From positions 125,922,001 to 125,986,000 of the forward strand of contig OX597818.1 in assembly GCA_951406725.2 (NCBI GenBank): a stretch of 64,000 bases of DNA, read 5' to 3'. This document shows positions 18,216 through 19,588 of the stretch, one piece after another. The stretch is from Octopus vulgaris (Eukaryota). Position numbers: made by a program. The first letter of the stretch is position 1. Every line of letters starts with the position of its first letter.

Positions 18216-19588
18216 AAGAAAGAGAGATACACACATATATGCATATACGCTTACGTGCATGCATTTATACATACATAGAAATATGTACATGTGAACTTTG
18301 TGATTCCGCACATTTTTGTCTACCTAATTCACTCGCAATACACAATTATATTTTTATTCTTTTATCCTCTCATGCTTTACTATTCGGTCGTCGACGACTT
18401 TACCTTTTATTTTTTCAGATTCGATAAAATAAGAAACATTTTAGCACTGAGGTCGATGTAATCGATTTACCAGTCACCTAAAACTGCTGGCCTTGTGCCA
18501 AACTTTGAAATCATTCTTTCATCCGTCATCATCTCCAGAATAATGCCGTGATGCTGGAGTAAAGCCGATGCAATTGGTAATTATTTTAGGACAACTGTTT
18601 TTGTAGTTAATTTGTTGAATAAACGTCTTTGATGCTGCTTTCCTCAGTTAACGTTTTCACCGCCACAGTGAAACATCTGCATCGCATATCGTAGGGTATC
18701 CAGTCTTTTTTTGAATACATATATATATATATGTGTGTGTGTAAAATTAATAGAGGTCGCAAATGTGACAGAGGGTACTGACTTAGCAACTCTTTTGCTA
18801 AAAATGAGAGTTAAAACAACTCCAACGCCACAAAGCACTGAACTTAATGACTGACAAAGTGACGTTAATTCCCTACGTACATGGTCGGATCGTGATTTCG
18901 GATTTTGATGCAAACTATCTAAATCCTCATCAGCGACTCTTTATACCTAAGATTAAACTCAACTACCGCTGTCAGTCTTATAAAGAAAACCGTTGAAAAC
19001 GTGTGCTGACTTTCAGAACGGTAAACGTGTAAACAACAAATTAAAAATGGTGGCTTATTAGCAATTAGAACCTAAAAGCAATATTAATAGAGGTCACACA
19101 AATGATGGAAGGTACTGACTAGCAAATCTTTTGCTAAAAATAAGAGTTAAAACACCTCCAAACCACAAAAGCAGTGAACTCAGAGGTGCTAGTCTGTGCC
19201 CACTGTTACTTTCCTGGCCTCTGTTAATATTGCTTTTAGGTTCTAATTGCTAATAAGCCAACTTTTTAATTTTTTGTTTACACTTTTACCGTTTTGAAAA
19301 TCAGCATATGTTTTCAACGGTAGAGATAGTTGTGTTTTACCGTAGGCGTTAAAAGTCACTGATGAGGATTAAGATGGTAAAATCCGAAGACGCGATCCGA
19401 CTACGTACGCTAGGGGTGTTACTTACCTTTGACAGTCATTAAGTTCATTACTTTTGTGGATCTGCAGTTGCTTTAACACTTATTTTTAGCAAAACGAGGT
19501 GGTGGTCGGTACCCACTGTCACTTTTGTTACAACTACTAATTTTCCCTGTAGATTCTAATTGCTAATAATCCACCCATTTCATATATA

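What the first reader, a model, noticed from the sequence alone, without database searches (positions are those of the whole stretch)
18745..19580. Terminally redundant ~315-340 nt monomers, one HHR each, joined head-to-head
Seen: each arm is slightly more than one unit and starts at a different register from the HHR. A third fragment (6128-6250) ends at the same point as the right arm. Established: retrozymes yield monomeric circular RNAs of a few hundred nt by HHR cleavage. Inference: more-than-unit-length, permuted cDNA is what reverse transcription around a circle or a multimer would give.
Basis: partly seen in the sequence, partly recalled or inferred. Interest (0 to 1): 0.8.

Follow-up and report, generated by a model that had tools for sequence, protein, structure and literature searches.

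The report
Penelope-style insertion of a small ribozyme element
This is an old, decayed insertion of a roughly 320-base non-coding mobile element carrying a hammerhead ribozyme, laid down as two back-to-back, slightly-more-than-one-unit copies in the pattern typical of Penelope-like retrotransposons, so it is a tidy example of something already known rather than a new kind of element.

Summary
Window 18743-19583 (841 nt) consists of two inverted arms joined 5'-to-5' at 19181|19182. The left arm is 439 nt on the minus strand with period 337. The right arm is 402 nt on the plus strand with period 313. Each arm is about 1.3 units and carries one hammerhead-like motif. The left motif has an intact core; the right has two disabling changes. 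A third copy (6128-6250) ends at the right arm's register and also starts at the left arm's 5' register.

The circular-template inference is not required. The anatomy matches the published signature of Penelope-like element (PLE) integration in five ways:
- a partial tandem (pseudo-LTR);
- an inverted 5'-truncated copy joined head-to-head;
- a 31-36 nt "tail" at one outer end only;
- AT-rich microsatellite flanks;
- a minimal PLE-type hammerhead.

Published in vitro PLE work shows initiation at two internal RNA sites, extension of both target strands, and use of unprocessed multimeric RNA. No copy end lies at the ribozyme cut site. Shared 5' and 3' registers favour a linear transcript with fixed ends.

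The copies are old (K2P 0.15-0.31). No PLE ORF lies in the window, and no array exceeds 1.3 units.

Verdict: a non-autonomous, PLE-mobilised hammerhead element; a new member of a known kind; low-to-moderate interest.

The parts
19049..19181 (-). Left arm, upstream partial unit (133 nt). Its sense 5' end, G+AGTTCA, lies at 19181. It ends at the register ...GCTAATAAGCCACC.
   Evidence: Profile alignment and nhmmer (E 9.8e-39); sequence. It has the same two end registers as the solo fragment 6128-6250.
18743..19048 (-). Left arm, main unit (306 nt). It ends at ...CCTCTATTAATTTT, which is 31-36 nt short of the 3' end used by the right arm and the solo copy.
   Evidence: nhmmer E 1.7e-103; direct repeat 18743-18844 vs 19080-19180 at 84.5%.
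18884..18937 (-). Hammerhead motif of the left arm: helix I GUCG/CGAC, core CUGAUGA, helix II GGAUUU/AAAUCC plus GAU/AUC, GAA, A15.1, loop UCACGA, U16.1, C17. The predicted cut lies between 18888 and 18887.
   Evidence: Descriptor hit, with 0 of 100 shuffles scoring under the strict descriptor; sequence. No Rfam match.
19182..19261 (+). Right arm, upstream partial unit (80 nt). It is 5'-truncated 53 nt further in than the left arm.
   Evidence: nhmmer E 2.5e-20; inverted repeat I1, 19038-19129 vs 19182-19273.
19262..19583 (+). Right arm, main unit (322 nt), running to the full 3' end ...TTGCTAATAATCCACCCATTT.
   Evidence: nhmmer E 9.1e-104; direct repeat 19183-19260 vs 19496-19573 at 75.6%.
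19355..19401 (+). Degenerate hammerhead motif of the right arm. CUGAUGA and GAA are kept. Position 15.1 is G, the first helix I pair is an A-C mismatch, and loop 2 is 7 nt shorter. The nominal cut lies between 19397 and 19398.
   Evidence: Sequence; alignment to the left arm; fails the descriptor.
19545..19580 (+). "Tail": 31-36 nt present at the right outer end and absent from the left outer end.
   Evidence: The alignment of the five pieces ends the left main unit at TAATTTT, while the right main unit continues. The last 39 nt are unpaired in the hairpin fold.
6128..6250 (+). Solo short copy (123 nt) of the same family. It runs from the G+AGTT register to the GCCTCC register and is followed 9 nt later by (TA)3(TG)9.
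   Evidence: blastn E 4e-9; nhmmer E 3.8e-28; sequence. It is much more diverged, K2P 0.46-0.52 to the other pieces.
18715..18742 (.). Left flank, a (TA)n(TG)n microsatellite abutting the left arm's 3' end.
   Evidence: Sequence.
19584..19655 (.). Right flank, a long (TA)n microsatellite abutting the right arm's 3' end.
   Evidence: Sequence; repeat families D1/D2.

Best explanation
This is one ancient integration event of a short (about 320 nt), non-coding, hammerhead-bearing retroelement. The element is a non-autonomous derivative or parasite of Penelope-like elements, the class now also called animal non-LTR retrozymes. It was inserted by a PLE reverse transcriptase/GIY-YIG endonuclease acting in trans.

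Proposed steps (all inferred):
1. A source locus with tandem or pseudo-LTR structure is transcribed from a start site about 43 nt downstream of the ribozyme cut. This gives an uncleaved RNA longer than one unit.
2. The PLE protein cuts both strands of an AT-rich (TA)n/(TG)n target.
3. On each strand it primes reverse transcription at one of two fixed internal RNA sites. Site 1 lies after ...CUCUAUUAAU(A/U)UU. Site 2 lies 31-36 nt further on, after ...GCUAAUAAGCCACC.
4. Each cDNA runs back through a whole unit and into the preceding unit. The left cDNA reached the RNA 5' end. The right cDNA stopped 53 nt short of that register.
5. The two cDNAs were joined blunt, head-to-head.

What is shown directly is the anatomy: two arms, their registers, the tail, the flanks and the ribozyme cores. 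The order of events, the trans-acting PLE and the start site are inferred. The ribozyme had no role in making this copy and, single and decayed, can have none at this locus now.
For: 1. Partial tandem in each arm, with the same unit-to-unit junction (GCCACC|ATTTTTAATTT and GCCAAC|TTTTTAATTT) in both arms. The junction was therefore in the template.
2. The arms are inverted and joined 5'-to-5', with both sense 3' ends facing outward against microsatellites.
3. The outer ends differ by 31-36 nt. Published tails are 30-40 bp (PMC8557442) and 31 bp in Pen2a_Av (PMC3846280). They are explained by two adjacent internal RT start sites (PMC11167929).
4. The independent solo copy 6128-6250 uses the same 3' register as the right arm.
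5. The solo copy and the left arm also share the 5' register to the nucleotide. Both read G where both internal copies read A. That would fit a fixed, possibly capped RNA 5' end; the cap-G precedent in LINE-1 is recalled, not checked.
6. The hammerhead has the PLE-type minimal build: short helix I, long helix II and a 1-bp helix III with a near-palindromic loop (PMC4209133 passages). That paper also reports pairs of minimal hammerheads 100-700 bp apart on opposite strands; here the two cut sites are 509 bp apart.
7. In 50 columns shared by all four partial units, 26 are invariant, 20 are private to one copy, 2 group by arm, 1 groups by position and 1 is other. K2P distances are 0.15-0.31 in all comparisons. 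This star-like pattern is what one event followed by neutral decay would give.
8. About 13.6% of window positions lie within 12 nt of a TA/TG/CA tract of 8 nt or more. Both loci of this family have their 3' ends within 0-9 nt of such a tract.
9. PLE pseudo-LTRs suffice for mobilisation in trans (PMC3846280). Animal retrozymes have been argued to be non-autonomous PLE derivatives (bioRxiv 10.64898/2026.07.22.740005: abstract, Results part 1, Discussion).
Against: - No PLE reverse transcriptase or GIY-YIG ORF was found in the window. The only RT is an APE-type LINE.
- No other genome copy could be examined, so the family's true end distribution is unknown.
- Only three copies define the registers. 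The solo copy is so diverged (K2P about 0.5) that its ends are uncertain by a few nt.
- No target-site duplication can be read, because the flanks are microsatellites.
- No Rfam hammerhead model matches either motif, and cleavage is untested.
- The microsatellites could have grown after insertion rather than being the target.
- The arms are unevenly similar: 91 of 99 positions match in 19222-19320 against 195 of 262 elsewhere (post hoc Fisher p = 1.4e-4). A single event followed by uniform decay does not predict this.
- A circular template is not excluded, because internal initiation needs no RNA 3' end.
Confidence: 0.7

Rival explanations
1. A hammerhead-processed, ligated circular monomer RNA was copied more than once round by a reverse transcriptase (rolling-circle reverse transcription). 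This happened twice, from the two strands of the target, and gave permuted greater-than-unit cDNAs.
For: - Both arms read through the AUC|CGAC cut site and exceed one unit.
- Internal initiation by PLE RT (PMC11167929) would let a circle serve as template and would still give fixed 3' registers.
- The model is proposed in print for metazoan retrozymes (PMC7229834 discussion passage).
- The four partial units are about equally diverged, as identical laps of one circle would be after decay.
Against: - A circle has no 5' end, yet the solo copy and the left arm stop at the same nucleotide. Both carry the same A-to-G difference from the internal copies.
- Neither arm exceeds 1.3 units.
- The circularly folded monomers are no more stable than shuffles (z -0.24 and +0.69), unlike the "highly self-paired" retrozyme circles (PMC7229834). 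Decay could have erased such structure.
- The hammerhead is the weakly active minimal type that needs a dimer (PMC4209133).
- In the PLE studied in vitro, ribozyme mutants did not change insertion, and no reads ended at the cut site (PMC11167929).
- The same architecture is produced by long coding PLEs that are not circular.
Confidence: 0.12
2. A DNA-level origin. Either this is a remnant of a satellite-like tandem array that underwent a local inverted duplication, or it is a foldback/MITE-type DNA transposon whose long inverted arms are built of subrepeats and which inserted at a TA site.
For: - The locus is an 841-nt near-palindrome flanked by (TA)n.
- Animal hammerhead repeats are classically satellite-like (PMC7229834).
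- A tract of unusually high arm-to-arm identity (91 of 99) suggests DNA-level exchange between the arms.
Against: - The two outer termini are at different registers, 31-36 nt apart. A terminal-inverted-repeat transposon needs matching ends.
- The inner junction is asymmetric by 53 nt.
- An independent solo copy shares one arm's 3' register and the other arm's 5' register. This is the behaviour of transcripts and cDNAs, not of array breakage.
- There is no array beyond 1.3 units in 64 kb.
Confidence: 0.08
3. A SINE-like element mobilised by a LINE, for instance the intact APE+RT LINE 1.8 kb away. The inverted structure would come from twin priming.
For: An apparently intact 1042-aa LINE ORF lies at 13849-16977 on the minus strand. 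Its closest database relative is 88% identical. 5' truncation and inverted 5' parts are known from LINE integration (recalled).
Against: - The unit has no similarity to any part of the LINE or its 3' flank. blastn and nhmmer found only the five family segments plus one noise hit at E 2.2.
- There is no poly(A) or strand-specific simple-repeat tail. The tracts after the 3' ends differ: (AC)n(AT)n, (AT)n, and (TA)n(TG)n.
- There is no tRNA, 5S or 7SL head (no Rfam hit at gathering).
- The partial tandem plus tail is described as not seen in LINE integration (PMC8557442).
Confidence: 0.04

Closest known systems
Canonical insertion structure of EN+ Penelope-like elements (for example Pen2a_Av of Adineta vaga; Poseidon PAc of Anolis)
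   Same: It shares the direct pseudo-LTR formed by a partial tandem, the adjacent inverted 5'-truncated copy joined head-to-head, the optional 30-40 bp tail at one end, the AT-rich target and the hammerhead in the repeated part.
   Different: The unit here is only 313-337 nt and has no ORF. Both arms are about 1.3 units, rather than one long coding copy plus short repeats. No PLE protein gene lies in the window. No target duplication is readable.
Metazoan non-LTR retrozymes (Cervera & de la Pena 2020; Li, Clavereau & Pollet 2026 preprint)
   Same: The monomer size (150-450 bp class), low G+C (37%), type I hammerhead orientation, and proposed dependence on PLEs all match.
   Different: Described retrozymes are arrays from dimers upward, so each monomer is bounded by two ribozymes. 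They carry canonical type I motifs and form highly self-paired circles. Here there is one minimal-type motif per arm, 1.3 units, and no excess folding.
Minimal hammerheads of PLEs, including pairs on opposite strands 100-700 bp apart (Cervera & de la Pena 2014)
   Same: Helix I is short (4 bp), helix II is long (6 bp plus 3), and helix III is vestigial with a near-palindromic loop. Two motifs sit on opposite strands 509 bp apart.
   Different: That paper attributed such pairs to truncated coding PLEs. Here the full periodicity shows that a complete short unit lies between the repeats.
Non-autonomous Chlamys PLE derivatives such as MRC1 of Chlamydomonas (Craig et al. 2021)
   Same: These are short non-coding elements that form pseudo-LTRs and head-to-tail multicopy insertions, and they show microsatellite insertion bias.
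   Different: They come from a different PLE clade that usually lacks canonical hammerheads, and from a green alga rather than an animal-type genome.
Plant LTR retrozymes
   Same: They are non-autonomous retroelements with hammerheads and terminal repeats (listing and abstract).
   Different: Plant elements have type III ribozymes inside true LTRs, PBS/PPT signals, 4-bp duplications and Gypsy-dependent mobilisation. None of these is seen here.

Membership tests
Hammerhead ribozyme, type I, minimal PLE-type variant | Conserved core: CUGANGA, GAA, A15.1-U16.1 pair, and H17 at the cut site | tested here: met
   The left arm motif has every core position. The right arm motif fails, with G at 15.1.
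Hammerhead ribozyme, type I, minimal PLE-type variant | Open helix I of 4-5 bp, and a longer than usual helix II | tested here: met
   In the left arm, helix I is GUCG/CGAC (4 bp) and helix II is 6 bp, then an A-A mismatch, then 3 bp. In the right arm the first helix I pair is broken and helix II is 5 bp.
Hammerhead ribozyme, type I, minimal PLE-type variant | Vestigial helix III with a palindromic loop that allows a dimeric active form | tested here: inconclusive
   The left arm has AUCACGAU and the right arm GACGCGAU. Each is self-complementary at 6 of 8 positions by inspection. A cofold gave a dimer gain of -6.1 and -3.8 kcal/mol, but not through a clean helix III.
Hammerhead ribozyme, type I, minimal PLE-type variant | Match to a curated Rfam hammerhead covariance model | tested here: not met
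   There was no hit at gathering score in the window. There was none at E <= 10 in 18700-19620 or in 18865-18955.
Hammerhead ribozyme, type I, minimal PLE-type variant | Self-cleavage at the predicted site | not testable with these tools
   This needs in vitro transcription of monomeric and dimeric constructs.
PLE-type insertion (EN+ Penelope-like element machinery) | Partial tandem giving a pseudo-LTR | tested here: met
   The redundancy is 101-103 nt in the left arm and 78-80 nt in the right arm.
PLE-type insertion (EN+ Penelope-like element machinery) | Adjacent inverted 5'-truncated copy joined head-to-head | tested here: met
   The junction is at 19181|19182, and the two arms begin 53 nt apart in register.
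PLE-type insertion (EN+ Penelope-like element machinery) | A 30-40 bp tail at one end only | tested here: met
   The right outer end extends 31-36 nt beyond the register of the left outer end.
PLE-type insertion (EN+ Penelope-like element machinery) | AT-rich or microsatellite target | tested here: met
   Both outer ends abut (TA)n/(TG)n tracts, and the solo copy's 3' end lies 9 nt from (TA)3(TG)9. The background is 13.6% of positions. Whether the tracts predate the insertion is unknown.
PLE-type insertion (EN+ Penelope-like element machinery) | ORF with telomerase-like RT and GIY-YIG endonuclease | tested here: not met
   There is no room for one in a 313-337 nt unit. Of 235 stop-to-stop ORFs of 75 aa or more, 150 were dropped as low-complexity. 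Of the remaining 85, 81 were scanned against Pfam. Only an APE+RVT_1 LINE was found. The element is therefore at most non-autonomous.
PLE-type insertion (EN+ Penelope-like element machinery) | Target-site duplication | tested here: inconclusive
   The flanks are microsatellites. Published PLE cases also often lack a readable duplication for the same reason.
Metazoan non-LTR retrozyme | Tandem array with at least two same-strand hammerheads bounding a monomer | tested here: not met
   Each arm has one motif and 1.3 units. No further copies lie in the 64 kb.
Metazoan non-LTR retrozyme | Monomer of about 150-450 bp with low G+C | tested here: met
   The units are 337 and 313 nt, and G+C is 37-38%.
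Metazoan non-LTR retrozyme | Canonical type I hammerhead (6-bp helix I, 4-bp helix II, loop-loop contacts) | tested here: not met
   Helix I is 4 bp with no evident closing loop, and helix II is 6 bp plus 3.
Metazoan non-LTR retrozyme | Highly self-paired circular monomer RNA | tested here: inconclusive
   Circular MFE z-scores were -0.24 (left unit) and +0.69 (right unit) against 100 shuffles each. The copies are 15-30% decayed, so lost structure cannot be ruled out.
Metazoan non-LTR retrozyme | Expression as linear and circular monomers | not testable with these tools
   No transcriptome of the source organism is available here.
Foldback / MITE DNA transposon | Matching terminal inverted repeat ends | tested here: not met
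   The outer ends sit at registers 31-36 nt apart.
LINE-dependent SINE | 3' end shared with a partner LINE, an A-rich or simple-repeat tail, and a pol III-type head | tested here: not met
   The unit has no similarity to the LINE in the window and no Rfam small-RNA head. The tracts after the 3' ends are not strand-consistent.

The most novel reading that the evidence does not exclude
The arms are cDNAs made by a PLE reverse transcriptase that started at its two fixed internal sites on a hammerhead-processed, religated circular monomer and ran more than one lap. Under that reading this locus would be a fossil of rolling-circle reverse transcription of a ribozyme circRNA in an animal. That step is postulated for retrozymes, and none of the papers I read reported observing it. 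Internal initiation removes the need for an RNA 3' end, so the shared 3' registers do not exclude this reading. Only the shared 5' register argues against it.
Probability: 0.12. Interest if true: 0.6.

Novelty: new member of a known kind. Interest (0 to 1): 0.27.

Why it matters
The locus is a compact natural record of Penelope-type integration. In 841 nt it shows both presumed start sites of reverse transcription, priming from both target strands, read-through of an uncleaved ribozyme site and a likely transcript 5' end.

A genome-wide census might confirm the same registers. That would extend to a non-autonomous element of about 320 nt, in what looks like an invertebrate genome, a mechanism so far shown in vitro for one lizard PLE. 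It would also bear on whether animal "retrozymes" are copied from linear multimers or from circles.

On its own it changes no current view. The architecture, the ribozyme type and the circle hypothesis are all already in print.

Tried and rejected
- **Rfam.** No hammerhead or other family explained the locus at gathering score, at E <= 10 on 921 nt or at E <= 10 on 91 nt. The weak IS128, snoRNA and miRNA hits all score far below their gathering thresholds and were discarded.
- **Circular folding.** The permuted monomers and their antisense strands showed no excess stability.
- **Hammerhead homodimer cofolds.** Energies were lower than two monomers, but no clean intermolecular helix III formed. 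Not used as evidence.
- **More family copies in the window.** blastn at word size 7 and a profile nhmmer run with --max found none beyond the five segments. One hit at E 2.2 inside the LINE was treated as noise.
- **A PLE protein gene in the window.** None found. Decayed fragments with many stops, and ORFs under 75 aa, were not examined.
- **Naming the organism from the LINE protein.** The 73 hits were almost all unnamed. The few named ones came from a ctenophore, a crab, a scallop and one labelled as a bacterial metagenome bin. No conclusion was drawn and the proteins were not used further.
- **Target-site duplication.** Not readable for the composite. For the solo copy, a TACAT occurs 4 nt before the 5' end and directly after the 3' end. 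It is too short and offset to count.
- **Microhomology at the head-to-head junction.** By inspection the joint is blunt, with no complementary overlap.
- **Snap-back (self-primed) origin of the right arm from the left arm's cDNA.** The orientation allows it, with a 52-nt loop (I1). However, the right arm extends 31-36 nt beyond what the left arm could have templated. It is kept only as a sub-variant.
- **Telling one event from two by informative sites.** With 2 columns grouping by arm and 1 by position out of 50, there is no power.
- **Not done.**
  - The genome collection holds only bacteria and archaea, and the phage, plasmid and E. coli collections are irrelevant. No copy outside the window could therefore be examined.
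  - Supplementary files were not opened. Fig. S9 and S1 of PMC7229834, Fig. S1-S2 of PMC11167929 and the supplementary tables of the 2026 preprint may hold the circle model drawing, the start-site maps and family lists that bear on these claims.
  - Lünse, Weinberg & Breaker 2017, on dimeric PLE hammerheads, is recalled only. It appeared only as a phrase match in other papers' text and was not opened.
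Full report
**1. What is there**

The stretch 18743-19583 is a near-palindrome.
- blastn of the region against the window aligns 18743-19544 with its own reverse complement (72% over 835 columns, E 2e-126).
- Folded as one RNA strand it forms a single long hairpin of -395 kcal/mol. Twenty shuffles average -183, giving z = -25.6. The last 39 nt are left unpaired.

Inside each half there is a direct repeat.
- 18743-18844 matches 19080-19180 (84.5%, spacing 336-337).
- 19183-19260 matches 19496-19573 (75.6%, spacing 313).

Read in the orientation of the hammerhead-like motif, the two halves are as follows.
- The left half is a minus-strand copy running 19181->18743 (439 nt).
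- The right half is a plus-strand copy running 19182-19583 (402 nt).
- They meet 5'-end to 5'-end with no filler or overlap.
- Each is about 1.3 units.

A profile built from the pieces finds exactly five segments of this family in 64 kb, plus one noise hit at E 2.2:

| Segment | Coordinates | Length |
|---|---|---|
| Left upstream partial unit | 19181->19049 | 133 nt |
| Left main unit | 19048->18743 | 306 nt |
| Right upstream partial unit | 19182-19261 | 80 nt |
| Right main unit | 19262-19583 | 322 nt |
| Solo fragment | 6128-6250 | 123 nt |

The window holds no N. The arms differ at about one position in five, so the palindrome is not an assembly or read artefact.

**2. The ribozyme motifs**

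I wrote a type I hammerhead descriptor: helix I of at least 4 bp, CUGANGA, helix II of at least 4 bp, GAA, A15.1-U16.1 enclosing 0-10 nt, H17.
- It finds three sites in the window.
- None of 100 dinucleotide-preserving shuffles gave a hit under the strict form. Under the two relaxed forms, 1 and 2 of 100 did.

One hit is the left arm motif (minus strand, core from 18933, cut after 18888).
- Helix I is GUCG/CGAC.
- Helix II is six pairs extended by three more.
- A single A-U pair encloses UCACGA, followed by C17.

The right arm motif (core from 19359, nominal cut after 19397) is a decayed copy.
- It has G at 15.1.
- The first helix I pair is an A-C mismatch.
- Loop 2 carries a 7-nt deletion.
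- It fails the descriptor.

No Rfam hammerhead model matches either motif, even at E <= 10 on a 91-nt slice.

The build matches the "minimal" hammerheads described in Penelope-like elements: a short open helix I, a long helix II and a vestigial helix III with a nearly palindromic loop. It does not match the canonical type I motif of described metazoan retrozymes (PMC4209133 passages; PMC7229834 passages). The first of those papers also notes pairs of minimal hammerheads 100-700 bp apart on opposite strands. Here the two cut sites are 509 bp apart.

**3. Registers of the ends**

No copy begins or ends at the ribozyme cut.
- The right arm and the solo fragment end at the same register (...TTGCTAATAA[G/T]CC[A/T]CC, with up to four or five more bases in the right arm).
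- The left arm ends 31-36 nt earlier, at ...CCTCTATTAATTTT. That shortfall is the 39-nt unpaired end of the hairpin.
- At the other end, the solo fragment and the left arm start at the same nucleotide, 43 nt downstream of the cut site.
- Both read GAGTT there, whereas both internal copies read TTAAGTT.
- The solo fragment therefore has exactly the extent of the left arm's upstream partial unit.
- The right arm starts 53 nt further in.

All three sense 3' ends lie within 0-9 nt of TA/TG-type microsatellites. About 13.6% of window positions lie within 12 nt of such a tract of 8 nt or more, and 6.2% lie in perfect tracts of 12 nt or more.

**4. Age and relationships**

K2P distances:

| Comparison | K2P |
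|---|---|
| Left redundancy | 0.15 |
| Right redundancy | 0.31 |
| Between arms | 0.22-0.29 |
| Solo fragment to all others | 0.46-0.52 |

- In the 50 columns present in all four partial units, 26 are invariant and 20 are private to one copy. Two group by arm, 1 groups by position, none is crosswise and 1 is other.
- This star-like pattern fits a single old event followed by independent decay. It has no power to separate the template models.
- One feature is unexplained. Arm-to-arm identity is 91 of 99 in the stretch aligned to 19222-19320, but 195 of 262 elsewhere (post hoc Fisher p = 1.4e-4). Exchange between the arms is a possible cause.

**5. What it most likely is**

Each element of the anatomy has a published counterpart in Penelope-like elements.
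[quoted passage not shown] They often have an adjacent inverted 5'-truncated copy and a 30- to 40-bp tail at one end, and they show a bias for microsatellites. Non-autonomous derivatives form the same pseudo-LTRs (PMC8557442 passages).
- In Adineta vaga an element is described with two direct and one inverted pseudo-LTR and a 31-bp tail. Head-to-head is called the most frequent arrangement, and pseudo-LTRs alone sufficed to move a host gene in trans (PMC3846280 passages).
- The purified Anolis PLE protein cleaves and extends both target strands and prefers AT-rich DNA. It starts reverse transcription at two adjacent internal RNA sites whose spacing corresponds to the tail.
- That protein uses unprocessed multi-copy RNA. 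Ribozyme mutants did not affect insertion (PMC11167929, parts 1-2 of 4).

I therefore read the locus as one PLE-mediated integration of a short non-autonomous hammerhead element into a (TA)n-type tract.
- Two cDNAs were primed from the two target strands, at start site 1 (left arm) and start site 2 (right arm).
- Each was copied back through one whole unit into the preceding one, and the two were joined head-to-head.
- The unit-to-unit junction is the same in both arms, so it was present in the template RNA.
- The shared G+AGTT 5' end suggests a fixed, possibly capped, transcript start in the upstream unit. The analogy to cap-derived extra G in LINE-1 copies is recalled, not checked.
- The anatomy is shown. 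The trans-acting PLE, the order of events and the start site are inferred.

**6. Rivals**

- **Circular template (about 0.12).** Internal initiation would allow it, so it is not excluded. However, it does not explain the shared 5' end. The monomers fold no better than shuffles (z -0.24 and +0.69). The same architecture arises with long linear PLEs. The model itself is already in print.
- **DNA-level origin, as array remnant or foldback transposon (about 0.08).** It is disfavoured by the unequal outer termini and by the solo copy sharing transcript-like ends.
- **LINE-driven SINE (about 0.04).** It is disfavoured because the unit shares nothing with the intact APE+RT LINE at 13849-16977. It also lacks a consistent tail or a small-RNA head.

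**7. Limits**

- No PLE ORF was found in the window. Of 235 ORFs of 75 aa or more, 150 low-complexity ones were dropped. Of the other 85, 81 were scanned; the four omitted lie antisense to the LINE ORF.
- No eukaryotic genome or transcriptome collection was available, so nothing outside the 64 kb could be checked.
- Supplementary files were not seen.
What the window shows is that a complete short unit, not merely a terminal repeat, lies between the redundant ends. It also shows no array longer than 1.3 units.

**8. Verdict**

This is a new member of a known kind. It is a neat miniature of the Penelope insertion signature, worth a genome-wide census, but not surprising to a specialist.

Noticed in passing
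window 53876-53962 (+), with (TA)n from about 53998: A second, unrelated hammerhead-descriptor hit. It has helix I UUUCC/GGAAA (5 bp), CUGAUGA, GAA and A-CAUAUG-U, where ACAUAUGU is a perfect 8-nt palindrome. The cut falls after 53957, about 40 nt before a long (TA)n tract. blastn of 53700-53998 found no other copy in the window. It is probably the 3' part of another PLE-type element.
   Followed up: partly
window 54577-55320, flanked by (TA)n at 54508-54576 and 55532-55598: Another composite of inverted and direct repeats. 54577-54789 is 92% identical to the reverse complement of 55075-55286. 55008-55075 is 87% complementary to 55253-55320. A 35-nt end sequence recurs at 54577 and 55042. A third hammerhead-descriptor hit lies on the minus strand at 54845-54797, just 5' of the left copy. 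It has a CUGAAGA core, a 6-bp helix I and the near-palindromic loop UUGGACCAA. It may be a second PLE-style inverted insertion with a tail of about 34 nt, or a MITE with 35-bp inverted ends. This is not resolved.
   Followed up: partly
window 13849-16977 (-): An uninterrupted 1042-aa ORF with AP-endonuclease and reverse transcriptase domains, that is, a LINE. The best database relative is 88% identical over 92% of the query. This looks like a young, possibly active non-LTR retrotransposon 1.8 kb from the finding, and it shares no sequence with it.
   Followed up: partly
window 19000-19089 (-) and 19222-19320 (+): The two arms are 88-95% identical over about 100 nt centred on the unit-to-unit junction. 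They are only 60-82% identical elsewhere, including the 45 nt nearest the palindrome centre. Gene conversion between the arms or uneven mutation could be responsible. This is unexplained.
   Followed up: partly
window 53560-53700 (+): Read by eye, one frame translates to a stretch ending ...LILTDSASIHNRWVEHF, which resembles the linker between the endonuclease and RT of many LINEs. Pfam found nothing in the ORFs 53184-53483 and 53644-53880. This is likely a decayed LINE fragment next to the hammerhead at 53880, but it is not verified by any tool.
   Followed up: no
whole window: The sequence is 65% A+T and very rich in dinucleotide microsatellites. There are 136 perfect TA/TG/CA tracts of 12 nt or more, covering 6.2% of the window. 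CpG observed/expected is 0.87. The Pfam scans turned up no host gene.
   Followed up: no
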